From positions 126,859,741 through 126,923,740 of the forward strand of contig CM041465.1 in NCBI GenBank assembly GCA_023213395.1: a stretch of 64,000 bases of DNA. Reading direction: 5' to 3'. A program made the position numbers and the translations under genes. The notes under the pieces are model-generated. The model saw only the letters and a list, made by a program, of their open reading frames with translations. It did not search any database and was not told the DNA's origin. Shown piece by piece: positions 5,670 through 62,179 of the stretch (positions are counted from its first letter, which is position 1; the number at the start of each line of letters is the position of its first letter). The stretch is from Cycas panzhihuaensis (lineage: Eukaryota; Plantae; Cycadophyta).

Positions 5670-7272
5670 GAATCTACCTATGTTAATCTTTGGATTTAGA
5701 AAAGAGCATCCTTTTGAAAGGGCATGCAATACTATCCTCTATGTATTCAAGTTTTGATAAAACTTATGATTATATCAGAAGATCATTTTACTAGTTGGGA
5801 TAAAAATCTAACATTCAACACTTCATTGTATCTTTTGATATTTGCCAATGACAAAAGTTAGAGGCAGTAAAACTTCCTAGTTAACTTCAGCCATTTCTAA
5901 TTCTAGGTCATAAATGGACATATATTAATATGGATTTTATTATAAGACTACCTAAATCTATAAGTAAAGATACTATTTTGGTTATTATGGATAGCCTAAT
6001 AAAATATGCATATTTATTCCACTATATAATACAATATCTATAATTTAAATTGGTGAGTTATTTATGAATACAATCCATTGCCTCCATGGGTTTCCTCAAA
6101 TAATTGTCAATAATCGAGACCTAAAGTTTACAAGTAAATTCTGGTCTAAATTATTTTAACTAGTAGGCACTTAACTGAATTTGAGTATGCCCCACCATCT
6201 ATAAATGAATGGACAAATTGAGTCTATTAACAAATCTCTTGAAGGATATTTTCATTGCTTTGTAATAGATAACTAATCGCAATGGGTATAATGGGTACAC
6301 TTTACTGAGTATTGATACAATACTTCATTCATTTAGTAATCAAGATGTCTCCCTTCCTAGAACTTCATTGTTACCAATCTTTAGACATTAATTCCTTTCT
6401 CTAGAAAATAATAAAAGCAACAACAATTAAAGAAATCTAGCAATAAACTTTAGATCTTCTTTAAGCTCTCAAAGATAAACTATAACTAGCTTAAAATTAT
6501 ATGAAGAAACAAGCTGATACTGATCATTATGCAAGAGAATTCAACATTGGTGATTAAGTTTTTTTTCACCTATAACCTTATAAATAGTCATCATTCAAGT
6601 CTTATAGTGAATTGGTTCTATCGCTTATGTTTTGGATATATATATGCTCAAATTTATAATATTTTTTATGTTTCTAACCTCAAACCCAAAACTAACTCCT
6701 TGGTCATAACACTAATAGCATTACCTATACTTGATGAAGAAGGTCAACTTATCTTAAGTCCAAAAGGAAGTTTAGATGTGTTGGAAATCAACTTGCACAA
6801 CAATCTTCACAAATACAACAGAACAACTCCATAGGATCGAACAGTACCCTTAAGGTACCTCCATTGTATTAACGGAAATCATTACAACATCATCTTAATA
6901 AGATACACAATATTGTGTATTTATAATACAAGTCATATTAGAAGAGTAGGACCCACTTGCATGTGGGATAAATCAAATGTACATTAATATTCTAACACTC
7001 CCCCTTAATGTACGTTTGGGTCATTTGTATTTGCATCGCTTTGTCCTTGGAAATGTCTTGAGAATGACGTCTTCAACCTGATCCTTATCTTCAATCTTGT
7101 AGTGATGTCTTTGCTGTAGAATGATGTCTTCATCTTGATTTTTGTCTTCAATTCTATACCGATGCCTTTGTAAGATGACATCCTCAGCTTGATTTCCATC
7201 TTTAATTCTATAGTAACGATGTTGATGTAGATGCTCTAGCAAGTGTAAATCCTGATTCTTTCTTGTGACTAG

Positions 7273-20953: not shown

Positions 20954-21104
20954 GCAAGGTCAACCGACAATGTTAGGAAAGAGGAAAAGCGGTAAAACAC
21001 ACGCGTTGGGGGTGCCCAACGTGGATATCGAAATAAGTATGAAAAGGATCACACAAGAGTAGCGAAACCAACCGAAGAGAGCAAAACTAGCTCCCTTACT
21101 GGCA

Positions 21105-21123
21105 GTCCCTAGTATGGTCACCA
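21105..21123 (-). promoter_or_regulatory. Primer binding site of the Tat element
   Basis: TGGTGACCATACTAGGGAC, 1 nt inside the LTR end. Resembles the TGGCGAC...GGGGAC PBS of Tat/Ogre elements. Confidence 0.7.
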
Positions 21124-21124
21124 A

Positions 21125-25457: not shown

Positions 25458-26267
25458 ACTGGTCTAGTCTGAAGAAGATCCTGTAAGTAACCGTCTTCAA
25501 TCATAACTTGCCTGTCATCATTATCTTGTATAAACTCTTGATCATCATGCACAATTATGACTTCTTCAATCTTTGGAGCAGAATCTTGATCAATTAGCAT
25601 ACTTTTTGAACTTGAATCAATGCTTAAAGAAGGAACATCATCAATATAAGACTCATCTTTTATGGGATCATTAGCTTCAATTTCTCTTGAAATCAATTCA
25701 TCACTTTTAATGTCTTCATCTGTAACCTCATCAATGCATTCAACAAGAGGGAGTTTCATCGATTGCTTAAACATTCTTCATCTTCACATGTTGTTTCTTG
25801 ATGTTGATGATACTTTCTTCATTTGTTGTACCTGTACCATAACTAGCTTTAATTGCCTTTTCAATCATTCGTTGTGTTTCTTTAGGAGTTTGTTCAAATA
25901 CTTCCCTTAGAGAATCCCAAGCTTCTTTAGCATTACTTGCATGTAGAATCATAGGAATAACAAAATGAAATTTGGAGGGAAGATCAATCTTGTTGAATGC
26001 AGCATGAATCATAATGAATGCCATTCTATCTTTCTTCTAAAGCATTTCTTTTTCTTCATCATCATTAGGGATATCATATTCGTCAGTAACAATCTTCCAC
26101 AAACCTCTAGCTATGAATAGACATCTCATTTTAATTGTCCAAAAGAAATAGTCTTCACCATTACATTTAGGTACTGGAATAAGTGAATCCCTTAAGTAAT
26201 ATTCATTTGTCTCAGGAGCATATATAACCACATCATTATCCTCCATGATTGTAAATGCCATTTCCAC
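25458..26267 (-). pseudogene. gag: Copia-type gag ORF of the TR-GAG-like element; continues at 7267-7021
   Basis: PKCNGEDYFFWTIKMRCLFIARGLWKIV (Copia gag N-terminus) and ASNAKEAWDSL. One stop and one frameshift. The frame DLLQTRP|VTRKNQDLHLLEHL is restored when 7273-25457 and one TSD copy are removed. Confidence 0.85.
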
Positions 26268-28375
26268 ATGCCACGTCCCTCACTTATCATTGGTAACTTG
26301 CATATTGATCACTCTCAACAAACTTTCTCATGTCTCATATCTCACATCATCACTTTATCATCACATCATTGCCTTATCCATTACATATCACCAACCAGTC
26401 ACGTAGAATCCAAACACTCTCTTCACCAAATCAATGCCTCATAACTCTCACAACGATCGTATATGTCATATATCGCTACCAAGACATACACTTCACTTGA
26501 TTGCCCAAAACACACAACTCATGCCATTACACTTGCAACTCATGTAACTTCAACAAAAACTTATCCTTCTTTACATGTTCACATCATGAAACATGCCTAA
26601 TTTCTTCCTTAACTCACCCAACAAAGTGTCCAACCTTGTCATGTAACCTCACATGTTACAAGGTTCATAATTGGCAAGTCAACACTTCATCAACTCTTTC
26701 ATGCAAACACATACCCCATCATATATCCAAGTCTCAAGTCAATAGAGTGCAAAATATGAATTAATGTCATCTCACATTACCAAGGTACTCTCCCATGTGA
26801 AATACATACAAGAAAGCCTCAACAGTCACCTCATCAATATCAAAGTATTCTCATGCAATCGCATACAAATGAACAATGAAAACCTCAAACTTCGTCTTAT
26901 GTCATCATGTCAACACATCAATCAAGAGTTTATTTCAAAAAACACTCACTCATATTGCCATAAAGATTAACTCAATGTCAAAGATTGCTCCCTTGTAACA
27001 ATAGCACACTTGCTTATCAGTCATTACCCTGATCATAATGCCCTCTTATTACTCTTCTCTTGCCCTTGTCATGTTCAACAAATGCCCAAACTTGAGATGT
27101 AACCCCAATAGCTCTCAAATATTGCTTCTCAAATATACCTTATATCATCAAAGTACTCCCTTATATCAACCCAACTTATGCCAATATCAAATATCACCAC
27201 CTCAAATTGCTAATGAATCACCAAGACACATCTTATATCACTCATATACTCAACATAAAAAGCTTTAAAGTATTACCTCAATAAACTAAATTTGATTGAC
27301 ACTTATCAATTCTCACTTGATAACCATTTAAGAAAAAGCTGTATTAAAAGTAACTTGATAATTCTTCAATCAAAACGTATAAGCATATTGATGTCTTTGA
27401 GTTAATATCTAATAGCCGATGTATACCCAAAAACTCATACCTGCGGGCGACTCTCCACGACTGTGCGGTTAGTTGTGGAGTTATACCATTTCCGTTCACT
27501 TATGCACCATACCCTAAGTGGTCATTGATTGCACCTTCGCAAAAGGAGTCTTAGTGGACCCTTATCTGTCATTCATCTTCTACATCTATTCATCGTGTAT
27601 CTATCCATGGAGAAATCAGAGTGTAAGGTTTTATGCACCATCCTCCATCGTATGCGTATGCCCTATATGACTTGCACCACTATAATTGATCTGTAACCAT
27701 TATGATTTCTATGTTGAATGAAAGCTGCATTTGTGGAGAGCCTTGACTATGCTCAGCACTGTGCCATTGTATTGGAAAGCTCCATTTGTAGAAGTAACCA
27801 AATTCTCTCAGATTCGTGGTTAAACTGTGGAGCTATGCCTTGTTCTATCCGTACAATCTTGTTCCAAGTATATGCCATGGAACCATGATTTGTCTACCCA
27901 AGTGAATGAATTAGATCGAGATTCATAATGCTCCTTTGGTATTTGTGCCCGTGTTGAACCTCTGTTCACCTTCATCTCTGTTGCCCTGTAAAACCTGTGT
28001 TCATGAAGGTTGTCTTGCAACTGCGTGAGGCCATCGCCAACGTCGGTTCATGCTCATTTGACCGTATTGTTATTCCTGTTGAAAAGCCATTGACATATCG
28101 ACAACCCAAGATCACCCAAGTAATACTCACGTGAAGACAATTTATGCCCTATCTCGCAATTGTTCTATCCTAGAGATTATACAAGCCTCAAGACGCCGCC
28201 AATTTTACATTCCCCGCTGACCGTTTCATGAAGGTAAATCAACGTGCTTCGATGGCTAAATAGTGTTCTCCACTGAAAACGCGATTCTATGGTTGATTGC
28301 TTAGTAGTATAAATACGACGGAGTTAGTCCAATGTGCCGACGTTAAACACGAAGAAAGAAGATGCAAAGTATGCA

Positions 28376-34786: not shown

Positions 34787-35355
34787 GAAAATAGTTTCTA
34801 CAAGATATGGAAATTATGATGGGTATTTGGTCCAATGGAAAGGCCTACACTAGAAGGATATTACCTAGATTTCTTAAGATAAACTAATACCTAACTAATT
34901 AGAAGGATAATACCTAAATTTCCAACTAATTTTAAACTAAGAAGAATTATTTCCCCTAATAGTATTTGATTCTATACCTTAACGGGTAATAGAATAGACT
35001 TAATAGGAATAAGACATCCTAAGTTACAAAGGACATTATGTACTTAAGAATAAAAGTAGATAACCTACTATAAAGTGGTCTCAACCTCAGAAGTATATTA
35101 TGTAAGATGTTTGTAAGTTATGGGTGGATTGCATTGAATTAACCCATAATAATATTTAGGAGGGATCAAATAAGTGCTTTGTGAAAGCTTCAAAAGAACT
35201 TTGCCATCCCTAACAAGATTTACCACCAAAGAGATCTCCTCATGATATAATCAAGGTAGGTCTATAATGTCATAAATAGAGGAATTAACACTAAGCTAAT
35301 AAATCTCTAAAGTACATCTCTCTAAATCACTCTTAAAAGGATTTCATGGAGAATT
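34787..35355 (+). repeat. Third copy of the CRM-like chromodomain/3' segment
   Basis: Near-identical to 3856-4399 and ~46098-46665. Confidence 0.95.
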
Positions 35356-38385: not shown

Positions 38386-38735
38386 TTTATAAGGGAGAAT
38401 ACCAAATACTAGGCTTGGGGAAATGGGTGTATGACAGTTTTGGCCAAGGCAATTGGATGGAGGTATTATAGTTATTTTTCAATGAATCAACTTAAATAAA
38501 GGGTGATAATAGTGGTCTTAAGCCCCCAAAACAACCAAAGCCATAAAAATACAAACAATATATACTGTAGCGAGTGAAATTATCAGGACACCAAAAAGGT
38601 TTAAAAATAGAAACAAGTATTGGAGACACAAGCAGATAATATAGTGACGCAATAGAGCCACAAACAAAATTTAAAAAAATTTAAATATAATAGAGAAATA
38701 TATACATAATCAAAAAAATTCTAAATATAATAGAG

Positions 38736-38865
<130 letters not shown>

Positions 38866-39139
38866 CTGAATGTAAAGTACAAAGAACCTAGTAATATCAC
38901 TGTGACAAATTTATAGAATATGACTTCAGAGTGTAAGAAGGTCTTGATCAATGGTCAAAACTCTAAACCATCTTCTTTAGTAGACATGTGAGCTTGCCAA
39001 GATTCTAATAAGCAGTCATATGTAACTATTCTGCTAGATGTATGAGAAGCTAGATTAATATGAATAAATATCAAACATCTCTTTGGCTTTGATACCAAAT
39101 GTAGGAAAATATACATGCCCAAATGACTCTGATACTAAA

Positions 39140-40786
39140 TGATGGATTCAGAGGAGCAGAGTAGGACATTAGATCAAGTGCATTTTGAGAAAATAAGTGA
39201 TTTCTAATTGTTCACAGTGTTTAAAGACACCAGGGTTACACACCCCTCTAAATATATAGTTTAGGGGAGGAGGGAAACTCCTCAACCCCTAGAATTCAAA
39301 CAATAATAAAATATTATAAACTTAACTCAAAATAACTTAACTCAAATCAACTTAACCTTACCTTTACTTACCTTCACATGTTGAGCACCCACATGTATAA
39401 ATTGGTAAGAGTAGGGTGTGCACTCCTGGTTGAAAGGTAGGAGTGGGGTGATGATCATTAATCCCATTCATCATATTTTAAAGTTTATTCTAAATGCACA
39501 CACTTATTGAAAGTATTTTTTCCATTTATCATTGTTGAAAAATTCATTTCCCTATTACACTTATAAAAGTTGCATCTAGTTTCTTTAATTTCCAAAGGCA
39601 TCTTTTATTTTTTCAAAGGGAATTACATTTTTTTTAAAGAGTATATTTGAAATTATATAAGTTTATTAATTTATTGAGTTCTTTAACTTAGTAAAAGCAT
39701 ATCTTTTTTATATACAAAAGTTTTTTTTCTATTCAAATGGCAATCAATCTTAATAAAGTACAATTTCCTATATTTGATAGCCATAATTTCTCATAATAGT
39801 ATAAAACAATACACAAATATTTCATTACAAATGATCTTTAGAAATACTTACAAAATGAATATGAGCTTATTATTAAAGAAAACTTTAAAAAGGATAATGA
39901 AATCTTAGGAATATTATTTTGTACTATAGATGATAATGTATTTTCTAAAGTTTATGAACTAATAGCTTCTAAATATGTATGGGACATCTTAATTTCTACT
40001 TATGGGGGAGATACCCTCAATGAATTTAATATTGATATTATTGAGCATGTGAGACAGGTGCCAGAGCAAATGGATTGTAATTAAAATACCAAGGAAAATT
40101 TAAGTCAAATGTATGATCATTTTGTTGCATAAGAACCTGATCCTCCATTTGAGGGGGAGGAATCTTATGATATGGTAGAGGAGAGATCTTATCATATGAT
40201 AGTTGCTCACAACATAAAGACTTTAAAAGACAAAGTTAAAGTTCCAGAAGATAAAGTTAAAGTTGCAACCACACTTCCACATTCACATCAAACTACATTT
40301 ACTTAGAGATTTTTTGCACCACTCAATTGTAAAAGGATGAGGCAAGTTAATAAAGATCAATCTAAGAGATAGATTTTAAAAGTTTTTTTCTAAGTAAGAA
40401 TTTCATAAGTTTAAAGAAAAGACAAGTTGTTTGAGATGACCATTAAGGGTGAGAATGTTGGGATTAATGATCATCATCCCACTCCCACCTTTCAACCAGG
40501 ATTGCACACCCCACTGTCACCAATTTACACATGTAGGTGTTCAACATGTGAAGGTAAGTAAAAGGTAAGGTTAAGTTGATTTGAGTTAAGTTATTTTGAG
40601 TTAAGTTTGTAATATTCTATTATTGTTTGAATTCTAGGGGTTGAAGAGTTTCCCTCCTCCCCCAAGCTATATATTTAGAGGGGTATGCAACCCTAGTATT
40701 TTTAAACACTGCCAACAATCAGAAATCACCTGTTTTCTCAAAATGCACTTAATCTAATGTCTTGCTCTGCTCCTCTGAATCCATCA
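39140..40786. mobile_element. Two ~330-bp same-family LTRs in inverted orientation (39140-~39470 and 40457-40786) around a Copia gag remnant
   Basis: The arms are reverse complements. The left arm has a PBS-like CTCTGATACTA just outside it. The right arm is preceded by PPT AAGGGTGAGAA. Gag remnant DDNVFSKV..ASKYVWDIL at ~39890-40010. Confidence 0.85.
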
Positions 40787-42899
40787 GTAAGGAGATCAAA
40801 TCATATTCTTTTAATATATAAGACTAGCATGCTAAGGTCATGAATTGATTTATCTCCTAAAAAAGTTATAATTTGAAAGGAGTAATTGAGGAAAATCTAA
40901 TCAAGAGTGTAAGACAACTGCTTATTCTTTGAATCACATATGATTTGGAGAATAACACTCCTCTCCTAAGATAAAAAATTATTTAGAAAATATAAGCATG
41001 AAAAGGAAATAAAGGGAAAAAAGTAATTTCAAATTGAAATAAGAAGCAATTGCTAATTTGATTATAGAATCATGCAACAAAAACTAAACATACAACTAAT
41101 TAAACGATATGCACAAGAAAGAAAAGTATGAATTTGAAGTTGTAGTTATAATTTACTCTAGCCCATGTTAAATAAAATGTGTTTCACTTTAAAAATAGTA
41201 AATAAATAGGTAGCTATAGGGTTGGTAATAAGGTGGGAAAACTAAAAAGTACAGTTACTTGAAATCACTCCTCAATGAGGTTAAGTTGTCATTTTATATT
41301 ACCATTTCTAAACTCTAATATGTCAATCCTATTTCTTACCAAATAGATTAGCAAGCAAAGCATATAAATCAAAGATAGAGAGGAGATAAGCATGAAAGAG
41401 AAAATTAAACTAATTATCAAAATTATCAAATAAATAGTTAAATAAAATGCACCTCGATGATACTTACTGATTATATAATGAAATAAGAATCCTATCCATC
41501 ATATTTGAGAAAAATATTGCAAAAAACTAAGAAATCCACCAAAACCTAAAAAAATTATCAAATAACAAAGTATATATAATGCTAAAATGAATCTAAATAA
41601 CATATGAAATCTACCCAATAGAAATCCAAGATAAGATTATTAAACCTATGGAAATTCTAGTAGCATTTCTACTACAATTGAAAATTTTCCAACAAGGTGA
41701 CAAATGTAATCCACTTGATAATACTATATAACAAATATTAACTCAAAAGGAATTAGGCTAAAATTAAATAATTCTAAGAAACTTAAGCAACTTCAATGGA
41801 TACACTCAAAGAATTTCTAAGAAATATAATGAATGTCATACTAAATCTTATTAAGAAAGAGATAGCATGTCATTGTTGTTACTTAAACTATGCCTAGTAT
41901 TAATCCAAATAACAGGAAAATGCACAACTCATTAGTGTATCCACTTACATAAATTAAGATACCCTAGTATGTTTATTTCACTGTAAATTACCCCTTTGAT
42001 TAGTACATATTTTTAATTAATAGAATTGATTGCTTCTGCTATAGGGTACATTAGGAGATGATGGGTGAAGGTTAGAGAAGAGAAGGTAGGTGTAATGACA
42101 ACTTGTTTCTTGCTAGCAATCAATAAATGTACAAAATATTTTCATTAACACCAACTTAGGAAATAAAACCATATATTGTATATTCTAAATACCTAATATT
42201 AAGGACAATCTAATGTAATTAACTAAGCCAAGCCATCATTCATATACCCTTTAAGACTGAGCTTTGAGAGTAAAATAACAATGAATAATCATATTATACA
42301 TATAATCCATGGTGCAAAAATCCCTAAAATTTCAAAGAACTAACTCATTCATCAATAATTTATCAAACGTATTTCATAACATGTTGGAAACAAATGAAGT
42401 TATTTGCTAAAATTTAAAAGAATAGGATTGCATCTAAAAATGGCTTATACAATTCTTGTTTGCTTAGGATAGGGCTTTAACCCAACATAAAGGGAATAGG
42501 AAATTAGATAATTAGAAGCATTTATCTTGAAATAGTTACTAAAGTGTCTTTAAGCTCTCCTTTTTTATTCATTACCTACTTGCTCCTATCTATTCTTGTT
42601 TCATAGACATATTAACAATTTTGGATAAAATGTCCATTCTTTTCTTTGCTCTTATCCTTACTTGCTATTTCATTCTTAAATTTAAGGAAAGCTCTAATTT
42701 AGATATGCAAGGATTTAAGTATAATCTAGGATAACAAATATAAGGATGAAGATGAAACTATTTTGCCAAGATCTTCAAAGTTCACAACATGTTATCTATT
42801 TATAGATCAAATTGTCCATATCTCAATATATATAAACATCGAAGAATTAGATTTAATGATCTATTTTATTGTATATTTTGGATTAAATTCTTAATTCAT

Positions 42900-45800
42900 G
42901 GTTATATAATAATATCTTCTCAATGAAATATACCTCTAGAGATAAGGTTTGCAAAGTTATTATTGATAGTGGTAACTATGAGAATATGGTTTTTAATAAG
43001 ATACTAGAAAAACTAGGCTTGTATTATGAAAGATATCCTACTTCCTACCAAATTTCTTAGGTCCAAAAAGGGAGTGAGGTACATATGGATAAGAGGCATT
43101 TGGTAAAATTTACCATTAAGAATACATATCAAAATACGGTATAATATGATGTTCTTACAATGAATGCATGCCATGTATTTTGAGGGAGGCTATGACAATA
43201 TAATAGGAGTGTATATTATGACAAAAGGAAGAATACTCATAACTTTTAAAAGGATGGTGTGAAAGTGGTGATGTTACGTATGAAGGTAGAAGTGCAAGTA
43301 GAGACTATGTTGATAATAAAGGAATTTATGAGAGAAGTAAAGCTGACTAATATTTTTATTATGCCTTAATAGAAAGGAGGTTAAGGAAGAGGATGTACAT
43401 ATACCAGATGAGGCAACAAGCATACTAATAAAGTATACAGATGTGATATGAGATGAGTTGTTAGATGGATCACCACCTATAAGGGACATCTAATATCACA
43501 CCAACCTAACTCTAGGACGAACCCTACTAAATTAACTAATCCATAGAATGAGACCAATAGAGAACATAGAATTAAACAAACAAGTGAGTGAGTTAATAAG
43601 GAATGGTATGGTAAGGGAGATATTAAGTCCATATATGACTCTTATATTATTGGCTCTAAAGAAATATGGTAGTTGGAGGATGTATTTTGATTATAAGGTA
43701 ATAAAAAAGATTACCATCAAGTATACATTTCCTATACCTTAAATGGATGACATGATGAATGTGCTTAAAGGAGCTTTATCCTTCATGAAGATTGACCTAA
43801 AAGTGACTATTATTAGATTCAAATTTAAGAAGGATATCATTGAAAATTTGCCTTCAAAACCAAGGATGACTTGTATGAGTAAATGGTTATATTATTTATA
43901 ATGTATAATTCACTAAGAATATTTATAAGGATGATGAACACAATGATGAAATATTGTATTAGTAAGTTTATTGTGATCTATTTTGATGATTTTTTGATAG
44001 TTAGTAAAATTAAGTAATACCTAATGCACTTGAAGAAGGTATTTGAGTTATTAAGGAAGGAGAAACTATATGCAAACTTAAAGAAATATAGATTCATGTA
44101 AAGGGGATTAGTATATTTAGGTATTTTTATTTCTCAATAAGGATTGTAAATGGATTAAGATATGATCACAATAATTATTGAGTAGCCTACTCCACAAACT
44201 ATGACAAAGGTAAGGAGCTTTAATGGGTTAGCTATTATTTACAAAAAGTTCATCATGAATTTTAGTAGCATTATTGCCTCAGTTATAGATTGCTTAAAAG
44301 GAAAGGAATTTGATTAGATGAGCACAACAAAATAGAGCTTCTACTTGCTAAAGAAAAAGCTAATAAAGACACCTATTATTATATTTCCAGATTTTGGTAA
44401 AATTTTTAAAGTTAATTATGATTCCTCACATGTGGCTATTGGAGAAATATTAAATCAAGAAAGAAGGCCAATAACATATTACAATGAAAAGTTGAATAAG
44501 ATAAGAAAAAAATATTCTACTTATAATATAGAATTCTATGTTATTATATAAGCATTGAGGCATTAGAGTCAGTATCTTATGCCTAAGGAGCTTATCTTCT
44601 TTATAGACCATTAAGCATTAAGGTATGTAAATATGCAAAAGAAGAGAAATGTTAGATACACAAAGTCGTTTCCATATTTGTAGGGCTTTACTTTCATCCT
44701 AAAGCATAAATATGGAAAGTAAAATCAAGTCGGCAATATATTAAGTAGAAAAGTAGTCCTATTAACCATTATGACCAAGGAAGTGGTTAGATTTGGTGCT
44801 TTCAAGGATTTATATGATACTAATCTAAATTTTAACGATGTTATGGAATATTGTGGGAATCCCTTAGTTAATGGGAATGAGTTTAAGTATAAGGACTATT
44901 TCATGTAAGATGGATACCTATTAAAGGAAAGATAATTATGTATTATGGTTGGATCCATGAGGGGAAATATTATGAAGGAATTGCATAATGGGGGTCTTAG
45001 AGGATACTTTAGTAGGAATAAGATGATAAATTTAGTGGAGGAGAAGTATTATTAGACATAAAGCACAATACAAAAAAGTATATGGCAAGGTACAAGATTT
45101 ATTAATTGGCAAGAGGACATATACATAACACTAAACTATATATACCATTACCAATGTTAGAAAGACCATGGACATTTTTTAGTATGGACTTTACGTTAGG
45201 ATTACTAAGCACCCAATGAGATGATGATTTTATCTTTATTATTATAGATTTAAAAATGGTTTATCTTATTGCATATAAAAAGACTGGTAATGTAATAGGG
45301 ATAGTAGACTTATTTTTTAAAGAGGTTGCTAGGTTATATAGGGTGTCAAAAACTACAACTTTATATAGAGATAATAAGTTTTTGAGTTAATTCTTAAAAA
45401 TATTATGGATGAAGTTGGGAAAAAAGTTATAATTTAGTAATCCTTAATATCCATAAATTGATGGGTAGATGAAGGTGGTAAATAAGATTTTAGGGAACCT
45501 ATTAAGATGATTATTACAGAAAAGCCTAAGCATTGGTACTTGGTATTAGTATAGAATGAGTTTGCTTATAACAAATCTATGAATAGATTAATAAGTAAGT
45601 CACCATTTTAAATTATATATGGTAGGAATCCTAAGAGGAGTATTAGTTTTGATATAATTATCCATTAGGTATAGGATAAGCTATGATGTAGAGGCTTTTG
45701 TAAAAAATATACAAGAAGTATATGATAATGTGAAAAAGAAATTATAGGACAATAATGACAAGCATAAGGAAGCGATAAATCTAAGTAGAAGAAATAAGAT

Positions 45801-46200
45801 ATTTGAAAAAGTGGATTTGGTGATGGTGTACTTAAGGAATGATAGGTTTCCTCAAGGTACATATAACAAGTTAAAATATAAGAAGATAGATTCATATATA
45901 ATTATAAATAAATTTAATAGCAATGCCTATTAGGTGAATCTATCCTAGAATATTAATATTTCACTTGTATTTAGTGTTTCTAATTTGTATGATTTTAAAA
46001 AAAGAGATGATTAGGTAGATGATAAGGAAGAAGAGGTGAATTAGAGGCAATAAATACCAAGGAAGAAGAGGGATGCAATGGAGCATCTATTAGATAAGAA
46101 AATAGTTTCTACAAGATATGGAAATTATGATAGGTATTTGGTCCAATGGAAAGGCCTACATTAGAAGGATATTACCTAGATTTCTTAAGATAAACTAATA
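42900..46200 (+). mobile_element. Decayed CRM-like Gypsy pol remnant; copy 2
   Basis: Same motifs and largely the same disabling mutations as 660-3960. Confidence 0.9.
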
Positions 46201-47250
46201 CCTAACTAATTAGAAGGACAATACCTAAATTTCCAACTAATTTTAAACTAAGAAGAATTATTTCCCCTAATAGTATTTGATTCTATACCTTTAAAGGTAA
46301 TAAAATAGACTTAATGGGAATAAGACATCCTAAGTTACAAAGGACATTATGTACTTAAGAATAAAAGTAGATATCCTACTATAAAGTGGTCTCAACCTTA
46401 GAAGTATATTATGTAAGATGTTTGTAAGTTATGGGTGGATTGCATTGAATTAACCCATAATAATATTTAGGAGGGATCAAATAAGTGCTTTGTGAAAGCT
46501 TCAAAAGAACTTTGCCATCCCTAACAAGATTTACCACCAAAGAGATCTCCTCATGATATAATCAAGGTAGGTCTATAATGTCACAAATAGAGGAATTAAC
46601 ACTAAGCTAATAAATCTCTAAAGTACATCTCTCTAAATCACTCTTAAAAGGATTTCATGGAGAATTTGAAAAGGGAAAGTAGGGAAAATACTTAGTATCT
46701 AACTAAAGAATATGGGGATTATAGTTGACTTACATAAACCTAGCTTACCCCATTGGGCTTATGCTTAAAAGTAATGTAATCACTTGTGAAATTATCCCCA
46801 ACATTTGATGTGAGGTAAGTATAGATGCCTCTAAGTTAGATAAAGAGTCAAATCTGACTCACCTTTAAGTTATTCATAGGCATATATATATATATATATA
46901 ATAGTACGACATATAGAAAAGATATCAACATTCTATTATTTCTACCATTATGTGCTTTAATTTATGGATACTATTATCTAGACAATGTCCCTTACTTATA
47001 GTGTATTGGTGTACAGTAATTTCTATAAAGTATATAGGACTAAAGATTTGATACACATGCTATAAAATAATTACTTGGTTGGTCTCTTGGTTGAATATTT
47101 AGTATGGAGAGCACAAATTATTATAAATGACCTAAGAGAGGCCATTGTATTAAATATTTATAATCCAATAATGGGAAGAGAAGGTAGCATGATGAGAATG
47201 GGTTAAAGCATGGAAGCACTCTTTGTTGTTGTTCTTCTTCTATATGCCTT

Positions 47251-49389: not shown

Positions 49390-52300
49390 CTTTCCATCTC
49401 TGTATAGATTATTAAGCATTACTTTTGATTATGATAAAGAATAAATAACCCATTCCTAGAATAGATGATATCATCAATGAACTTCATTATGCAACATTCT
49501 TTTCAAAGATTGATCCACAACTAGTTATTATTAGATTCCTATCAGAATAATTGATTATGAGAAAATAACTATTAGGATATATTAGGGACTATATCAGTTT
49601 AAAGTCATGCCCTTTGGCCTCACAAATACTTCAACAATGTTTCAAGCCATAATGGAAAAGGTATTGGCTCCTTTTCTATGTAAATTTATCATGGTTTACT
49701 TTGATGACATTTTAGTCTATAATAAGTATTTTTAATGACATATTAATTATTTATCTAAGGTATTAAAATCCTTGAGTCAAAATAAGTTGTTTTCCAAATG
49801 AGCCAAGTGCCATTTTGGCCAACAAACACTTGAATATTTGGGTTAGATCATTTCCATCCAAGGCACTTGTACGAACCGTAATAAAATTCAAGTCATCTTG
49901 TACTAGCCAACACCCACTTTAGTCACTGCTCTCTGGGGGTTTTTAGGACTTACTAATTTTTATAAGTAATATATCTAGCACTATTTATCCCTAGCCATCC
50001 TAGTCACTAATCTTTATAAAAGGAATACCTTCCATTAGTTAGACTTGGTTGATCATGCCTTTTCACACCCAAAAATAATTGTTATTTTTACCCTTATATT
50101 GGTAATGCCTAATTTTTACAAACCATTCAAACTACATGGTGATACATCTAGATCAGGTAATGGAATCTTATTATAGGACAAACAACCCATAGCATTTAAA
50201 AGTAGAAAAGTTAATCAACTTACTCAACCTATAATAATGAAAATCTAGATATTCTTCATGCTTGAGTAAAATGGTAATAATATCTTTTTAGTAACAAATT
50301 CATAGTATATACCAATCATCATAGCCTCACATATCTCTTATAGTAACCTACCTTATCATAATTAAACAAAAAAGGCTCATAAAAGTTCAAGATTTTGATT
50401 TTGACATTATATATAAGAAGGGAAAATATAATATAGTGGTTGATAGTTTATCTAGGAAACATGAACATGTGTCATGTCATGTGATTTCCACAGTACTTCC
50501 TATATGGAATGCTAAATTACATTCTAAGTATGGTAGTGACCCAATGACTAAAGCCAAGATTCACAAATTCCATCAAGGAAAAGCTCCATCAAATTGGTCA
50601 CTACATGGGAATATTTTATTATGTAAAGGTCGAATCTACCTATTCTAATCTCTGGCTTTGAAAAAGAGCATCCTCTAGAAAAGGCATATGACACCATCCT
50701 CTATGCATTCAAGTTTTGATAAAACTTATGATTATAATAGAAGATCATTTTACTGGTTGGGGCAAAAATATGACATTTAACATTACATTATGTCTTGTGA
50801 TATTTATCAATGAAAAAAATGTAGAGGCAATAAAACTTCCTGGTCTACTTCAACCAATTCTAATTCAAGGTCATAAATGGGTAAATATCTGTTATAAGAC
50901 AAATCTTGTAACCAACCATCATAGAGAAATAGAAAGAGAAGATGATAGATAAAAGACAAAGAAGGAGATGAAATTCTAAAGAACATTCATTAACATAAGA
51001 TTATCAAATACATCATGATGATCCCACTTATACATTACATACACATATATGGGGCTATTAAGGCTACCCATCTCTTAGACTTATGCATGTGGGATAAATA
51101 CAATAAGAGTAACCTCATATGGTGGAGGATTATAATATGCCCTGCCCCCTAAAATTACTTCACCCTCAAAGCATCCTGATTTAATGACCATCTCTTGTTA
51201 TTATTCTTCAATCGATAGCTCTTACAAATGTTGGCAGAAAAGTTGTGCATGGAATGGGGATCTATCAATTCTAAGTTGATCTTAATACACCATGCATATC
51301 CTCTAATATACCACCTATAATGTTAAAACCATAAGCTTGAATGTTATGCTTGCCTAGTGTTTGTAGTAGATGAATGCCTTGCTTGATAAGTTTTGTTGTG
51401 CTGGACCTCTTGATAATGTGGATGCCGATATGGTTCCACTTTAGTTTGCCTTTCAACTATTTGTGATGCCTTTTGTTCCTTATCCTTAGGTGCCACTGAT
51501 GGTGTGGGGTGACAAATAAATTCTATTGCTTTCTCTTTAGTTTATCTTTCCATTATTGGTGATGCCTTTTCTTCCTTATCCTTGGGCGTAGTCGGTGGTG
51601 TGGGATGGTAAACAACTTTTGTTACCTTCTCTTGACATTCTTTTTCTTTCTCATAATCTTTCTTTTTTTCTTGACTTTATGGAGTAGGGAGAATTTCTTG
51701 TCCCATACTGCGATTATATTTCTCAAGTATTTGGCATGCTTCTTGTTTGTTTTGTTCAAGGCTTTGCATCTCTTTCCACTAAGAATCATTATATTTCTTA
51801 CGGGTAGCTCATTCTAGTCAATAAAATGTATCACAATAATGAATTGAATTATACCAATCTTTAAACCAAAGATAAGCCTCTGCTTGTACATATAATGATG
51901 CTACTTTAGTCATATCCTCGTTGAGTCGGTAGTTATCATCAAGTGATTTTAAATATGCATGCATATCTTTAACCTAATCATCTACAAAAACAGTCCCATC
52001 CACATTAAAGATGTGTGGTATAGGCCCTTTTGTAACCATGATAATATAGATATATGAGAGATTAGGGGTGTCTATAGCTTGTTATCCCCTAATTTTGATA
52101 CAAAAAATATATATTGGGCTTCATGAGCAATGGTTTTGAGACCATAATCTTAATGACTAAGAAAATATAGTATGAAACCCTTTATTTTAAAATATTTATT
52201 TCTAAAAAAAAATATAGCTTAAAAATATATAAAGTATGGACTAAGATAATGGCCTCTAAAATATGATTCAAATAGTACAAACGAAGTTGAATTCTGGTAT

Positions 52301-55300
52301 CTAGATCAAAAGTTATGCCCTTTTTAAGAATTTCATTGCTAGGGTTTTTTATGGGTTATAATAGTACTTACTAATAAAATTCTAATAACATTTTACTCTG
52401 AACTCTAATTAGCCTCAAACCACTTCCATTGGAAAGTAAATTAAAAAATGCATAGAATCAAAAACATTTGAGGTCATTTGGATACCTGTAGTGAAAGTTA
52501 TAGCTCTTTGAAGTTGACGTTATAAATTTGTCCCAGAATTATGGTGACAGAAAAAAAGTAGGCCGAAATTAATTTTGCAATAATTTTCACACTTTCACCC
52601 CAAAATCTGTAGTGCAACCACTCAAAATTTACATAACGAGCCATTTTGTCTCAAATTTGCCATTACTTTTTAGAATTTTCAACGTTTATTCTCTCGAAGA
52701 TGCTTTCAAACCTTTGATGACACTTCCAAGATCGTCGCTCTGATACCAATTATTACAAGATAAATATTATAACCAACCATCAAGGATAAATAGAAAGAAA
52801 AGATGATAGATAAAAGACAAAGAAGGAGATGAAGTTCCAATGAATATTCTCTAACATAAGATTATCAAATACATCATGATGATCCCACTTATACATTACA
52901 TACATATATATGGGGCTATTAAGACTACCCATCTCTTAGACTTATGCATGTAGGATAAATACAATAAGAGTAACCTCAAATGATGGAGGATTATAACAAA
53001 CTTCTTAAGTATTTGTTGTGCTTCTTGTTTGTTTTGTTTAAGACTTTGCATCTCTTTCTACCAAGAGTCATTATATTTCTTACAGATAGCTCGTTCTAGC
53101 CAATAAAATGTATCATAGTAATGAACTAAATTATACCAATCTTTAAACCAAACATAAGACTCTCCTTGTAGATATAATGAGGCTACTTTAGTCATATCTT
53201 CGTTGAACCTAGAGTTATCATCAAGTGATTTAAATATGTATGCATATCTTTAACCCAATCATCTATATAAAAAGTCCCATCCACATTAAAGATGTGTTAT
53301 ATGGGCTTGTTTGTAGCCATGATAATGTAGATATAGGAGATATTAGGGGTGTATATAGCTTGTTATCCCCTAATTTCAATACAAAAATAATATATATTGG
53401 GCCTTATGAGCAATGGTTTTGAGACCATGGTCTTAATGACTAAGAAAATATAGTATGAAACCCTTAATTTTAAAATATTTATTTTTGAAAAAAAATATAG
53501 CTCAAAAATATATGAAGTATGGACAAAGATGATGTCCTCTAAAATATGATTCCAATGATACAAACAAAATTGAATTCTGATATCTAGATCAAAAGTTATG
53601 CCCCTTTTAAGAATTTCATTATTAGGGTTTTTATGGGCTGCAATAATACTTACTGATAAAATACTAATAACTTTTTACTTTAAACTCTAATTAGCCTCAA
53701 ACCACTTCCATTGGAAATTAAATTAAAAAATGCATAGAATAAAAAAAAAATTGAGGTCATTTGGATACCTATAGCAAAAGTTATGGCTCTTTGAAGTTGA
53801 GGTTGCAGATCTGTCTTAGAATTACGGTGACAGAAAAAAAGCAGGCCGAAATTAATTTTACTATAATTTTTGCACTTCAATCCTATAATATGTAGTGTGA
53901 CAACTCAAAATTTATAGAATGAGCCATTTTGTCTCAAAATTTCCACTACTTTTTAGAATTTTCAACGTTTATTCTCTCGAAAATGCTTTCAGACCCTTGA
54001 TAACATCTCCTAAATCATCGCTCTAATACCAATTGTTACAAGCCAAATCTTGTAACCAACAATCATAGAGAAATAGAAAGAGAAGATGATAGATAAAAGA
54101 CAAAGAAGGAGATGAAGTTCTAAAGAACATTCATTAACATAAGATTATCAAATACATCATGATGATCCCACTTATACATTACATACATATATATGGGGCT
54201 ATTAAGGCTACCCATCTCTTAGACTTATGCATGTGGGATAAATACAATAAGAGTAACCTCATATGGTGGAGGATTATAACATGTCCTCCCCCATAAAATT
54301 ATTTTGCCCTCGAAGCATCCTGATTTAATGACCATCTCTTGTTATTATTCTTCAATCGATAGCTCTTACCAATGTTGGTAGAAAAGTTGTACATGGAATG
54401 AGAATCTATCCATCCCAAGTTGGTCTTGATACACCCTACATATCCTCTAATATACTCTAGATATCTGTAATGTTAAAACCATAAGCTTGAATGTTGTGCT
54501 TGCCTAGTGTTTGTAGTAGATGAATGCCTTGCTTGATAAGTTTTGTTGTGTTGGACCTCTTGATAATGTGGATGCCGATATGATTCCACTTTAGTTTGCC
54601 TTTTAACTATTTGTGATGCCTTTTGTTCCTTATCCTTAGGTGCCATTAATGGTATTGGGTGGCAAAAAACTTTAGTTACTTGCTCTTTAGTTTATCTTTC
54701 TATTATTGGTGATGCATTTTCTTCCTTATCCTTGGGTGCAGTTGGTGGTATGGGATGGAAAATAACTTTTGTTAGTTGCTCTTAATATTCTTTTTCTTTC
54801 TTATAATCTTTATTTTATTCTTGACTTTATGGAGTTGGGAGAATTCCTTGTGTCATGTTATAATCCTCCACCATATGAGGTTACTCTTATTGCATTTATC
54901 CCACATGCATAAGTCTAAGAGATGGGTAGCCTTAATAGCCCCATATAGATGTATGTAATGTATAAGTTGGATCATCATGATATATTTGATAATCTTATGT
55001 TAGTGAATGTTCTTTGGAACTTCATCTCCTTCTTTTTCTTTTATCTATCATATTCTCTTTCTATTTCTCTATGATGGATGGTTACAAGATTTGTCTTGTA
55101 ACAATATCAGTATGGGTTTTATTACAAGACTACTTAAATCTATGGTAAATATGTTATTTTAGTTGTTATAGATAACCTAATAAAATGTGCACATTTTATT
55201 CTACTATATATTACAACATCTATAGTTCAAGTTAGTGAGTTATCCATGAATATAACATCTATATTTCAAGTTGGTGAGCCTCCATAAGTTTCCTCAAATA

Positions 55301-56450
55301 ATTGTCAGCGATTGAGACCCAAGGTTTACAAGTAAATTCTGATCTAAATTATTTTAACTAGCAGGCACCTAGTTGCATATGAGTATGGCCCACCATCTAT
55401 AAATAAATTGATAAATTAAATCCATTAATAAATCTCTTGAAGAATATTTACATTGCTTTGTAGGAGATAACTAATCCTAATGGGTATAATGTGTAGACTT
55501 AACTGAGCATTGGTACAATACTTTATTCATTCAATAATCAAGATGTCCCCCTTCTTGGTACTTTATGGTTACCCACCTTGAGACAACAATTCCTTTCTCT
55601 AGAAAATAATAAAGGCAATAACAATTGAATAAATCTAACAACAAACTTTAGATTTCTTCAGGCTCTTAAAGATAGCATATTACTAGCTTAAAATCATATG
55701 AATCAACAAGCTAATGTCCATCATTATAAAAGAGAATTCAACATTAGTGATTAGGTTTTTGCTCACCTACAACCTTATAGATAGTCATCATTCAAGTCTT
55801 CTAGGAAACAAAAGCTTGCTCCTTAATTCGACTGACCATTTTAAATTTTGTATCAAATTAGTTCTATCGCTTATGTTTTGGATATACTTGTGCCTAAATT
55901 TATAAGATTTTTTATGTTTCTAATTTTAAAACCAAAATTAACTCTTAAGTCATAGTATAGATAGAATTACCTATACTTGATGAAGAAGGTCTACTTATCT
56001 TAAGTCCAAAAGGAAGTTTAGATGCTCACATGAGATAATTATAAATATGGATAATAAAGAGTATCTAATTAAATGGCAATTACTTTTTCATGATGATCCC
56101 ACCTAGGAAAGTGAAGACATCTTCCAAATATTCCCTAACCTTCCCATGCTTTGAAGACATAGCATTTTAAAATGAAAGGCACTTATTGCAAACCTTACAA
56201 TTGATTATAATAATAATAATCATAAACTACTCATTTAATAAACATGACCTAAGGTTCTGACTTATCAAAAAGGCATGCCATAGATATTTATATGGTTGTG
56301 GAATAATATATATTTATTATCATTCTATTCAAATCAATATGCATTTCCTGTATATCTAATAATCACTTACCCTATGTTCAATTCTAGTAGTAGAAGTGAG
56401 ATCCACTATAACCCTTATTTACTTCACTAAGTTGCACAATCATGATATTA
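49390..56450 (+). mobile_element. Decayed Reina-like chromovirus RT-RH-INT-chromodomain, interrupted at 50890-55103
   Basis: CIDY..PIPRIDD, VMPFGLTN, VYFDDILVY, DTSRSG, VVDSLSRK, integrase and EYLIKW chromodomain. Paralogous to 5670-6778 plus 29010-29440. Confidence 0.88.
50890..55103. mobile_element. Composite non-autonomous LTR insertion with four 248-bp LTRs, the last one inverted
   Basis: Direct LTRs 50890-51137, 52751-52998 and 54034-54281; inverted LTR 54856-55103. Minus-strand Met PBS at 52737-52748 and 54020-54031. PPTs after LTR 1 and LTR 3. TSD ATATC at 50885-50889 and 55104-55108. Confidence 0.93.
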
Positions 56451-58162: not shown

Positions 58163-60224
58163 TATTGGAATATGTTAATATATCGATTTAAATAAAGTGG
58201 GCCTATTTATGTGCCTAATATGTAAGTGAAATATTCTCAATATGGGTGAGTTGAAGGATATAATTATAATTATATTTAGGCACTTTAGATCTATAAATAT
58301 AGATCAAAGTGCATCCTTATATACAACATTAGATTTATAAATATTTGAATAATATTATTTTGTGGCTTTTCACCCATAAGGGTTTCTCATGGTAATCTAA
58401 TGTCCCATATGCATGTATTCTATTGTGATTTTCTTGTTGTGAAAGATCCTATTGACCTTTTCTTACATTTATATTTCCCAACATGGTATTAGAGCTTATA
58501 AGTCATGCACATGTATAGTATTATTATCGAATGGTTCAATTATTGGTGCCAAGTCATGCTAGCTTGCCCTTAGTGGGTTGGCATATTTGATAATCTTGTA
58601 GAATAACCACAGAGGTGAAAATGATTGGTGGTGGATCCTAAAGGCCCTTATTTTTCTATTTTTAGGTATTCAATGCTCCATGGACATGTGCAGATGAGTT
58701 CAAGATGTTTTAAAGACCTAGTTACTTTGTTGCCAGCCATAGATGCTTATTTGAGCCTACTGAAGGTGCATGATCTATTTGTTGTTAATGCCATTAAGTT
58801 TTTAAACCTCTAGAGGTATTTTCATCTAGTTTTAAAGGTGTTTGAGGTTGTCTGTATGTAGAAAGAAGCCATACACCCATTTGCTAGCCCTTTGTTGCTA
58901 GTGGGAGAGTGCAAAGACCCCGTGAGATAATTACAAAGCTATGAAATGAATAAATTATAGTTAAAATGTAAGGTATACTCATATATCATATACTTTAAAA
59001 TATATTGGTCACCCTTTTGACATTTTAGAGTTTGAATAATATATTTAGCTGCCCATTTTATACACTACAATTTGCTTGATTATCTGGTCACCTATGATGA
59101 TTTTTATAAAGTTGTATATATAGTACTTCCATTTCAGTACTGCATGCATGATATTCTTGATTGCCCATTTATGATAAATATATAGTGGATCTTAATATTC
59201 TTTTGTTGGTTATTAAAATAATATCGGCTATGCATGATAAGTATGTTATAACTGTAAATTATCCTTGCCCATATGATATTGCATGTTGATCACTATTTTT
59301 AATCAATATTATAAAGTCGCTCATTCATTTTGTTCTACCCTATTGATTAGCTTGATTGCCACTTGAGTAAATCTATGTGTACTTATGTCGCTCATACACA
59401 GATCTTTATTTGCCTGAATACATATGTTTACATCTCTATTTATTATAAACCTATGTTTGCATTATCATTGTATGCTATATTTATTCCCTCCATTATTATA
59501 TGATGGTCTACATTGATTATTTTAGCAGCCATCAATATATAACAAAGTTTGCCACTTTGGGTTTATAAAGTTGATTTACAACTTTATATTTTAATATTTA
59601 TACCCTATCTTATAAAGTTGCTTCATGTTTTGACATAATGTAAGGTCACATTTATCATATTTGGAATTGCTTTAATATATTAGTACTCTTTCATTTATAT
59701 ACTTTGTCATCATTTAATGCCCTTTTTGGTATCTATATTTTGGCATTTTGATGAGAGTATGTAATTTTTAAAAAGTAGCCTAAAAATATTTTATAAGGCT
59801 TCATGTTGATATATGGTGAATGAGGTAACTTTGTGATATAGCAATTTATGAGGTGTGTTTAGGCTCCCTAGCATGTGTTTACATGAGAGAGTAAGATGGG
59901 TGATGATGGTAATTTGTGATGAAGAAAGTGCATTAAGCATGCTTCACTTTTGGGCAAGACATAGTAACTTGGTACTCCTTAGAATGTGATTTACATGAAG
60001 GAGATTTATGGGTGAAGAAAAAGACAAGATAAGGTGATAAAGTAGGGCAAGATGAGGTAGAGGTATACGTGTTCCATGTGAGTTACATGGCAAGTTAGTT
60101 TGGTGAAAACATAGGCGAAGAGGGTGAGAGAAGGGCAAGAAAGGGAGAGTGTGGAGATACCTTAATTGCAATATAAAACAAGCTCTATTACTATTATTAG
60201 TATGACATAGATCATTACATAAAG

Positions 60225-60259
<35 letters not shown>

Positions 60260-62179
60260 TATGTATGTATATGTTTATTCAGTGAAATAAGTGTGCTTTA
60301 TTTAAATTATATTTGAGTTCTATTATATCATATGTGTATAAGGTGATAAGAAGTTTAGAATTTATTGTTTGTATAAGTGGTTATCAATTATGATGGACTG
60401 TTATACTTGGTTAGTTGGACTGATGTTGACATGAAGGTTTGTGACCTACTTTGATGCTGGTTCAAAGTATATGCATATCTAAACAAGTTTGATGTGGAAC
60501 CTAAACAAAGTATTTGATGAAATTTAAAGTGTGAATGGAAAGATCTATGACGAGATGCCTTAAAAATTAGTTATGCCTTTAACATGGTATAAAATGGGAG
60601 TTGTTTACCCCGTGAACTCTATGTGTTACATGTATAGTATCATGATGTAGATGGTGAGGTTGGTGCATGTTATGGTTAGCCTCCCATATTTGGTTGGTAG
60701 AAGTTGTAGCGAATAGGTATTAGGATCCCTTATTAAAGTTATTTGTGGCATATGTTCCCCTAATCTTGTGTGTGTTTGGACTAGTTAGAAGCCTTCCATT
60801 TATTCCTTGAATGCATTAAAGTACACACATCTTAGATGAAGATCATAATAATATGATTATGAGAGCTTTAAGCCTATAGGGTTGTTTAAATAATGCTTAG
60901 AAATAGTGTGATCTATAGGGGAAGTGCATTATGATTAGTCTAGATGTTAAAGTTAAAGAGTTTATGATGTATCATGCTGAGCGTCATCTGATTACAGGTT
61001 TTATCCTTCATTGCTTTACTTTTCTGAGTTGATTCAACATGTGTGGAGGTTTATTTGCCTAACATTGTGTTTGAGATGAAAGTAGGACCTAGTAGAAGAT
61101 TGATGATGAGGAGCCATTAGTTGAAGAGACATGGATTGTAACCCCATGTTCTATTAATGGTTAAAGACTTGCAAGATGGTTGAAAACTTGGATCAGTATA
61201 TTAGTCAAAGCTTATGATAGATACCAACATTCCAACAAGTACAAATTCACAATAGAGAGCTGCATTAATAAAGAGTGATATATGTGGGATTTGGGTTCAT
61301 TTCCTCCCTCAAGAACCTAGTTAGTTTGCAAGTTGGAAGACCTGATGCACAAAATTTCTAGCAGAAAGAAGGATTCAAGCATGAGAAGATATTATGCACT
61401 AGTCTCTATGTTTATTAGTCCATTTGATCCTTACTTTTAGTGGCTTCAAATTGTTGGGTATCACATCACATCATATTAGCATTCCTTAATGGAGACTTGA
61501 AGAGGAGATTTACGTGGCTCAAGTGGCTCAACCTCTTGGTTTAGTCAAAGGAATATGGCTAAGTTTTATGGATAAAGTATCATATGTACAGAGAGAGATA
61601 TGGTTGTGGTGTCTATTTTAGTATTTTTAAAAATTGAGAACATAAGACGAATAGTACCATTACATTTGAGAGCAAATCAAATTAAGGAAGATGTAGGTTA
61701 AATATTATCCAAGTGGAGATCAAATTATGGATGTGTTCACTAAACTCAAACTAAAGATCACTACATTTATATTCATGCATATTAGGTAAGGTTATCCTTG
61801 AGAGGGGATTTATTCCCAAGGATAAACATTGTTACCCCACATTTACATTAAGAGGGGATGTTGGAATATGTTAATATACCGATTAATATAAACTGGGCCT
61901 ATTTATGTGCCTAATATACAAGCGGAATATTCTCAATATGGGTGAGCCAATGAATATAATTGTAATTATATTTAGGTGCTTTAGATCTATAAATATAGAT
62001 CAAAGTCCATCCTTATGTACAACACTAGATTTGCAAAAATATGAATAATATTATTTTGTAGGTTTTCACCTGTAAGGGTTTCCCATAGAAATCTAATATC
62101 CCATGTGTGTGTATTCCGATATGATCTACTTACTATGAAAGATCTTGTCGACCTTTTCTTACATTTATGTTTCCTAATA
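58163..62179 (+). mobile_element. Old, internally deleted Ty1/Copia element
   Basis: 321-bp LTRs 58163-58483 and 61859-62179. PBS TGGTATTAGAGC 58484-58495. PPT AGAGGGGA. TSD AAGAC/AATAC. AFLNGDL-EEIYVAQ and DQIMDVFTK remnants. Empty site in the paralog near 31155. Confidence 0.9.

What the first reader, a model, noticed from the sequence alone, without database searches (positions are those of the whole stretch)
50885..55108. LTR composite with inverted terminal LTRs bounded by one perfect TSD
Seen: the layout is ATATC-[LTR A]-full internal-[LTR B]-second half of internal-[LTR C]-first half of internal-[inverted LTR D]-ATATC, and the paralog at ~5915 is an empty site. Both host junctions use the same LTR end, and both junctions of B and D with the middle segment use the opposite end. 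The middle segment is a circularly permuted internal region around a single LTR, opened at about internal position 570 with ~10-12 nt missing. Inference: this is a fossil of multi-molecule integration, in which integrase paired like ends of two cDNAs and trapped a 1-LTR circle (D later reduced to a solo LTR). Ordinary nesting or unequal recombination does not leave an inverted terminal LTR with an intact TSD.
Basis: partly seen in the sequence, partly recalled or inferred. Interest (0 to 1): 0.8.

Follow-up and report, generated by a model that had tools for sequence, protein, structure and literature searches.

The report
Two retrotransposon copies inserted head-to-head
This 4.2-kb insert holds the sequence of exactly two copies of a small non-coding retrotransposon, scrambled, with the same end of the element at both tips inside one 5-base target duplication; it is likely the dead fossil of two DNA copies that joined head to head, were inserted as one piece and were then partly flipped.

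Summary
The layout is confirmed. ATATC flanks a 4,214-bp insert in a dead gypsy-type pol gene, and a paralogue has the site empty. Both host junctions are U5 LTR ends. Both inner junctions are intact U3 ends, 11 nt apart at one internal site, with no duplication. The insert equals two 2,109-bp elements. LTR C has both native neighbours (PPT, PBS) and D has neither, as reciprocal recombinants would. So no captured circle, third cDNA or solo-LTR step is needed. Best reading (0.4): two cDNAs joined U3-to-U3 (the uncut U3 end reads CATG, self-complementary), integrase used the two U5 ends, and two inversions broke up the palindrome. Rivals are reverse-transcription jumps, U3/U3 integrase attack on a circle or on the partner, and double insertion at one site. 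One integration by two like ends has about 0.8 support overall. The junctions were not checked against independent reads. It is a single fossil with no sign of function: a new variant of known multi-LTR composites.

The parts
50885..50889 (+). Left target-site duplication ATATC
   Evidence: single copy in the paralogue
50890..51137 (-). LTR A, 248 bp; U5 end joined to the host, U3 end beside a native PPT
51138..52750 (-). Complete 1,613-bp internal region of copy 1 (PPT at about 51140-51150, PBS 52737-52748); no Pfam match in the 2 open frames from it that were scanned
51706..51716 (.). Site x in copy 1: the 11 nt whose counterpart is missing from copy 2; partly overlaps the only GATTATA of the internal region (51712-51718), which matches the U3 tip
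52751..52998 (-). LTR B; native PBS on its U5 side, intact U3 end joined to site x of copy 2; U5-side 101 bp are 14-15% diverged from the other LTRs, U3 side 3-5%
52999..54033 (-). PBS-side part of copy 2's internal region (PBS 54020-54031), 11.9% different from copy 1
54034..54281 (-). LTR C; native PBS on one side and native PPT on the other
54282..54855 (-). PPT-side part of copy 2's internal region (PPT at about 54284-54293), 10.2% different from copy 1, ending at site x
54856..55103 (+). LTR D, inverted; intact U3 end joined to site x, U5 end joined to the host; no PBS or PPT beside it
55104..55108 (+). Right target-site duplication ATATC
49586..50884 (+). Left host flank: decayed gypsy-type pol (RVT_1 match at 49586-49732, E 2.5e-9; domain order and the gypsy label are inferred from recalled motifs)
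55109..56024 (+). Right host flank: continuation of the same decayed pol gene
5670..6778 (+). Paralogous host copy with the site empty (79-83% alike)

Best explanation
Two DNA copies of a 2.1-kb non-autonomous LTR retrotransposon were likely joined head to head at their U3 ends, likely inserted as one piece by an integrase acting on the two free U5 ends, and likely rearranged by two inversions into the present order. Shown: two U5 ends inside one 5-bp duplication; two intact U3 ends at one internal site with 11 nt lost; content of exactly two elements; C with both native neighbours and D with none. Inferred: (1) the uncut U3 ends annealed through their self-complementary CATG, giving a near-palindromic dimer; (2) a borrowed integrase inserted it; (3) a break at the centre of symmetry, between CA and TG, freed both U3 tips intact, and they were rejoined at site x of copy 2, which weakly resembles the U3 tip, flipping that copy's 5' LTR and PBS half; (4) a crossover between copy 2's two now-inverted LTRs flipped the PPT half and made C and D; (5) A took its U5 side from copy 2's lineage, by gene conversion from C or by a first-strand transfer between two RNAs. 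Whether step 3 came before or after insertion cannot be told. The insert has no coding capacity found and no sign of function.
For: Insert 4,214 bp against 2 x 2,109. Flipping [5' LTR + PBS half] in a head-to-head dimer and then crossing over between the inverted LTRs gives the observed order and orientation of all 8 segments (symbolic check). The two bases beyond LTR C plus its first two read CATG, self-complementary; the U5 counterpart CAAT is not. D is preceded by CA. Small loss and no duplication at x fit end-joining, not concerted integrase action. The internal region's only GATTATA lies at x (7-nt match to the U3 tip; 3.3% of windows reach this in either orientation), and 51706 is the only one of 1,604 positions whose purine/pyrimidine pattern matches the U3 start 10 of 10 in D's orientation. 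C and D pair over 239 of 248 nt in a single-strand fold. A, C and D are of similar age. LTR gene conversion is reported in 23% (angiosperm mean) to 55% (spruce fosmids) of elements, tracts 222-428 bp (PMC5751070, section 15); hybrid LTRs from the first template switch are documented (PMC5668417, passages).
Against: It needs five steps, none seen directly, and no intermediate state is in hand. It predicts A = B and C = D at insertion, but A-C is the closest pair (6 of 248) and A and C share two sites against B and D, so step 5 is an add-on. The likeness of x to the U3 tip was noticed after the fact; by identity it is only 4 of 10, which 39% of positions reach, and the 10-of-10 pattern occurs 3 times in the other orientation. 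The CA before D can also come from the target (copy 1 has CA there). One inversion (step 4) needs a crossover, and PMC5751070 (abstract) argues that large genomes favour conversion over crossover. Copy 2's own sequence at x is lost, so microhomology cannot be measured.
Confidence: 0.4

Rival explanations
1. One faulty reverse transcript. Copying ran through one RNA, jumped to a second RNA and, at the U3 boundary, to site x; after the normal second transfer it resumed on the left-over PPT half of the second RNA and was finally capped by an inverted LTR-length plus strand. The product had two U5 ends and was inserted as it is.
For: Predicts A = C as the outer LTRs of a two-RNA product and B with a different U5 side, as seen; this is the Sabot-Schulman heterodimer (PMC1950507, whole text). 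Uses each half of the second RNA once and explains adjacent breakpoints, the 11-nt loss and the 7-nt match at B. No later inversion is needed.
Against: Needs three abnormal jumps in one molecule. D shares two sites with B against A and C, so D needs a third template. D carries no PBS copy beyond its U5 end.
Confidence: 0.2
2. One reading: crossed integrase complexes on two cDNAs; U5/U5 went into the host, U3/U3 into a 1-LTR circle; D was later reduced to a solo LTR.
For: The middle segment is a full circular permutation around one LTR. U3 ends are intact. 1-LTR circles are abundant products (bioRxiv 2022.09.25.509424, passages; PMC7197481, passages). D differs from A and C at two shared sites, as a third molecule might.
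Against: No 5-bp duplication at the opening; 11 nt lost. Needs three molecules in one place plus solo-LTR formation, which is rare in large genomes (1 solo per 3.7-7.5 full elements in four conifers; PMC5751070, passages). A-B is not the closest pair.
Confidence: 0.1
3. Crossed integrase complexes on two cDNAs only: U3/U3 attacked site x of one of the two molecules (autointegration, inversion type), U5/U5 attacked the host, and one later LTR-LTR inversion gave C and D.
For: Gives the same intermediate as the best model with one inversion fewer. Autointegration into the element's own DNA is documented in plants (PMC7197481, passages) and yeast (PMC4751563, passages).
Against: Concerted attack should leave a 5-bp duplication at x; none. 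Gives no reason for x to resemble the U3 tip. Same A-B problem.
Confidence: 0.1
4. Double insertion: two normal integrations at the same 5 bp in opposite orientation (three TSD copies), then the same palindrome-breaking inversions with loss of the middle TSD. No like-end integration.
For: Inverted LTR-element dimers with the target motif in the junction exist in Drosophila (Rover; PMC5932611, passages).
Against: No ATATC at either inner junction (at most the single A after B). Needs a second insertion at the same 5 bp; no target preference was shown for this family.
Confidence: 0.1
5. Assembly artefact, or independent neighbouring insertions with a chance 5-bp match.
For: Only the window sequence supports the junctions; the family is highly repetitive.
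Against: D differs from every other LTR at 11-22 of 248 sites and has its own flank, so it is not a fold-back copy. Host frame and paralogue show that exactly 5 bp were duplicated and none lost. Chance match p about 0.002.
Confidence: 0.07

Closest known systems
Template-switch complexes of Triticeae, rice and maize (Sabot and Schulman 2007, PMC1950507; whole text read)
   Same: Two related elements inside one 5-bp TSD; extra internal LTR; two LTRs much closer to each other than to the internal one (A-C against B).
   Different: There the three LTRs are direct, the cores are intact and the termini are U3 and U5. Here there are four LTRs, one inverted, one core is permuted and both termini are U5.
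Multi-LTR Cassandra TRIMs of pear (PMC4079214; passages read)
   Same: Small non-coding element, 3-5 LTRs within one TSD.
   Different: Every inner LTR there has both PBS and PPT; the passages seen describe no inverted terminal LTR and no LTR-to-internal junction.
Autointegration inversion circles (SISYPHUS in Arabidopsis, PMC7197481; Ty, PMC4751563; passages read)
   Same: A U3 end joined in inverted orientation to an internal site (D to the PPT half).
   Different: Those are extrachromosomal dead ends with one U3 and one U5 inner junction. Here both inner junctions are U3, there is no duplication and the DNA is integrated.
Double-insertion dimers of Drosophila, including an inverted Rover pair (PMC5932611; passages read)
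   Same: Two copies of one LTR family in inverted orientation at one site.
   Different: Those keep the target motif in the junction; here no host sequence lies inside.

Membership tests
Non-autonomous LTR retrotransposon (unit element) | LTRs with TG...CA termini | tested here: met
   C and D intact; A and B each have one decayed terminal base
Non-autonomous LTR retrotransposon (unit element) | PBS beside U5 and PPT beside U3 | tested here: met
   the label tRNA-Met for this PBS is recalled
Non-autonomous LTR retrotransposon (unit element) | No gag-pol coding capacity | tested here: met
   One stop-free frame of 100 aa or more in the insert; 0 Pfam matches in the 5 insert frames scanned, a hand-picked subset of those listed
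Non-autonomous LTR retrotransposon (unit element) | Dispersed multi-copy family | tested here: met
   18,283-27,203 contigs laid per run, summed depth thousands to over 100,000 inside against 30-170 in the flanks
TRIM (size class) | Whole element under about 1 kb with a very short core (recalled) | tested here: not met
   2,109 bp with a 1,613-bp core
Sabot-Schulman template-switch complex | One flanking TSD | tested here: met
Sabot-Schulman template-switch complex | All LTRs direct, two intact cores | tested here: not met
   D inverted, second core permuted
Sabot-Schulman template-switch complex | Outermost LTRs the closest pair | tested here: inconclusive
   A-D 13 against A-C 6 of 248, Fisher p = 0.16
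Integrase insertion into a 1-LTR circle or autointegration | Intact LTR ends at the internal site | tested here: met
Integrase insertion into a 1-LTR circle or autointegration | 5-bp duplication at the internal site | tested here: not met
   AACTT against TGTCA, 11 nt lost
Double-insertion dimer | Host TSD kept between the two elements | tested here: not met
Like-end (U5/U5) integration | Same LTR end at both host junctions with one exact TSD and no host loss | tested here: met
Like-end (U5/U5) integration | Junctions supported by independent reads | tested here: inconclusive
   See Tried and rejected

The most novel reading that the evidence does not exclude
A genomic fossil of two crossed integrase complexes: the U5 ends of two co-packaged cDNAs were paired and inserted into the chromosome while their U3 ends were paired and attacked a sibling molecule (the partner itself or a 1-LTR circle). 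This would show that plant retrotransposon integrases pair like ends of different cDNAs in vivo and can carry suicide products into the genome.
Probability: 0.2. Interest if true: 0.7.

Novelty: new variant of a known kind. Interest (0 to 1): 0.42.

Why it matters
It indicates that a retrotransposon integrase will accept two identical LTR ends in vivo and insert a two-copy molecule cleanly. Such inserts are missed by finders that need direct LTRs, and their LTR pairs mislead insertion dating (here 2.4% to 8.9% within one insert). The family appears to have very many copies, so a screen for U5/U5 and U3/U3 inserts in the source genome could measure how often this happens and tell end-joining, reverse-transcription and integrase routes apart. 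As a single dead insert it has no known effect on the host.

Tried and rejected
No whole genome is held, so the genome-wide screen could not be run. Public runs: 18 listed, best share of words 0.30. Six runs (X1-X6, contigs only, 46-53% of each read) were laid in two calls. No listed piece spans any of the four new junctions; at 97% likeness the longest listed piece inside the insert was 88 nt (32 of 8,036 rows shown). These runs probably do not hold this locus, but the tables are cut and a hole proves nothing, so this counts neither for nor against. One contig of X4 joins the left flank (50707-50888) to the right flank (55255-55500) without the insert, but at 97% and 88% likeness it may be a paralogue. 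Two scans of metagenome contigs: 0 matches; 72 matches, none of which aligned to the element by BLAST. I first guessed that copy 2's site x was a perfect palindrome equal to the U3 tips; family contigs crossing x (table 5c) resemble copy 1 instead, so this was dropped. A test of whether copy 1/copy 2 differences track family conservation was not significant (heterogeneity p = 0.34; Spearman -0.35, p = 0.19), so an older insertion with later LTR homogenisation is not excluded by that test. Ordinary nesting and homologous recombination were rejected because neither moves a U5 end to the right-hand TSD (reasoning). Literature: 10 searches listed no paper whose title, abstract start or read passages describe a U5/U5-bounded two-copy insert; the library lacks most subscription journals and older retroviral biochemistry, and PMC1676259 was not held. 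Passages of PMC5027509, PMC12789967 and PMC10462705 gave nothing on like-end integration. No supplements were opened; they could hold such cases.
Full report
Observation. Self-BLAST and alignments confirm the layout. The unit element is 2,109 bp: 248-bp LTRs and a 1,613-bp core. A primer-binding site lies beside B and C and a polypurine tract beside A and C, which puts the element's sense on the minus strand. Both host junctions (A, D) are therefore U5 ends and both inner junctions (B, D) are U3 ends. The host is a decayed pol gene (RVT_1 match upstream). Its frame continues across the site with ATATC counted once, and a paralogue at 5915-5935 has the 5-mer once. So exactly 5 bp were duplicated and nothing was lost; a chance match has p about 0.002. 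D differs from each other LTR at 11-22 of 248 sites and has its own flank, so it is not a fold-back read artefact. The organism is not given; a large plant genome is my inference from the PBS type, the dense nesting and the size of the public contig sets.

Bookkeeping. The insert is 4,214 bp; two elements are 4,218 bp. The second core is cut once, at site x, with 11 nt missing and no duplication. LTR C has both native neighbours, which no LTR of a linear monomer has; D has neither. That is what a reciprocal crossover between a 3' LTR and a 5' LTR gives. Undoing an inversion between C and D, and then an inversion of the 5' LTR with the PBS half, returns a plain head-to-head dimer of two whole elements with U5 ends outside (symbolic check).

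Inner junctions. Both U3 tips are intact to the base. Concerted integrase action would duplicate 5 bp at x; 11 nt are lost instead, which is more like end-joining (established knowledge, not a call). The two bases beyond an LTR's U3 end plus its first two read CATG, which is self-complementary; the U5 counterpart is not. Two uncut U3 ends could anneal there, and a break at the centre of the resulting palindrome would free both tips intact. Site x weakly resembles the U3 tip: it overlaps the core's only GATTATA (3.3% of windows reach a 7-nt match in either orientation), and it is the only one of 1,604 positions with a 10-of-10 purine/pyrimidine match in D's orientation. This was seen after the fact, identity is only 4 of 10, and the pattern occurs 3 times in the other orientation, so it is suggestive only. 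If real, it weakens the argument that two breakpoints 11 nt apart (p about 0.014 by chance) must come from one concerted reaction.

LTR relationships and age. Differences per 248 nt: A-C 6, C-D 11, A-D 13, B-C 19, A-B 21, B-D 22. Private changes are A 4, B 15, C 2, D 7 (unequal, p = 0.003; A, C, D alone p = 0.23). Eleven of B's 15 lie in the U5-side 101 bp (16 of 1,500 permutations reach this split). Two sites group A and C against B and D. The cores differ by 11.4% (182 of 1,600). The simplest reading is an age of about 2% per lineage (1.7% on the U3 side, 2.3% on the U5 side of A, C, D) and two parents that already differed. In support, 15 of the 32 listed near-identical family contigs lie in C, with 0-2 differences in 54-68 nt. 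Against it, core differences are spread evenly (p = 0.34) and do not track family conservation significantly, so an older insert with converted LTRs stays possible. Either way A and B were not an untouched pair, which every two- or three-cDNA model has to explain by conversion (PMC5751070, section 15) or by strand transfer between two RNAs (PMC5668417, passages; PMC1950507, whole text).

Mechanism. I commit to a head-to-head dimer inserted by two U5 ends and then broken up by two inversions (0.4). Rivals: one faulty reverse transcript (0.2), which explains A = C directly but needs three abnormal jumps and a third template for D; U3/U3 integrase attack on a circle (0.1) or on the partner molecule (0.1), both lacking the expected duplication; double insertion at one site (0.1), lacking the middle TSD; artefact or chance (0.07). 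The first four share one integration by two like ends, about 0.8 together.

Comparison with known cases. Multi-LTR elements in one TSD are known (PMC1950507; PMC4079214, passages), as are inversion-type autointegration circles (PMC7197481; PMC4751563) and inverted double-insertion dimers (PMC5932611). This insert fails a defining feature of each. Ten searches of the held library listed no description of a U5/U5-bounded two-copy insert; like-end donors in test-tube integration are, from my recall, familiar, but no paper on them was retrieved. Earlier notes of this scan report like-ended LTR inserts in several other genomes. They are unchecked and are not evidence, but they suggest the class recurs, which lowers the surprise of this one case. 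Look-ups by sequence and by place found nothing.

Verdict. A real, unusual, single fossil with no sign of function. New variant of a known kind; interest 0.42. Its value lies in the screen it invites in a high-copy family.

Noticed in passing
window 6779-29009: Nested LTR element with 219-bp LTRs 97.3% alike, TSD AGATG and the same PBS type; it splits the host paralogue and holds a GC-rich nest with three copies of a repeat of about 1.7 kb (7265-8999, 21117-22855, 22887-24613; 93-95% alike), two of them about 30 bp apart.
   Followed up: partly
window 3856-4424, 34787-35355, 46098-46666; 1-4399 and 42264-46642: Three copies of a 545-569-bp stretch (96-98% alike, no TG...CA ends seen) and a 4.4-kb duplication at 96.7%; looks like the edge of a segmental or tandem duplication.
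   Followed up: partly
window 58165-62177: Older LTR element with 317-bp LTRs 85% alike, PBS at 58484, inserted in the same host copy.
   Followed up: partly
window 51431-51646 and 54581-54797: The core carries two decayed tandem copies of a unit of about 96-104 bp (74-79% alike).
   Followed up: no
window 51338-51437 and its counterpart in copy 2: One 100-column block of the core differs at only 3 sites against a mean of 11.4 (p about 0.04 over 16 blocks) and falls in a bin with high family depth; either a conserved element or a conversion tract.
   Followed up: partly
window 39140-39466 and 40459-40786; 38679-38875: A 328-bp inverted repeat pair (91% alike) and a long self-complementary low-complexity run.
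   Followed up: no
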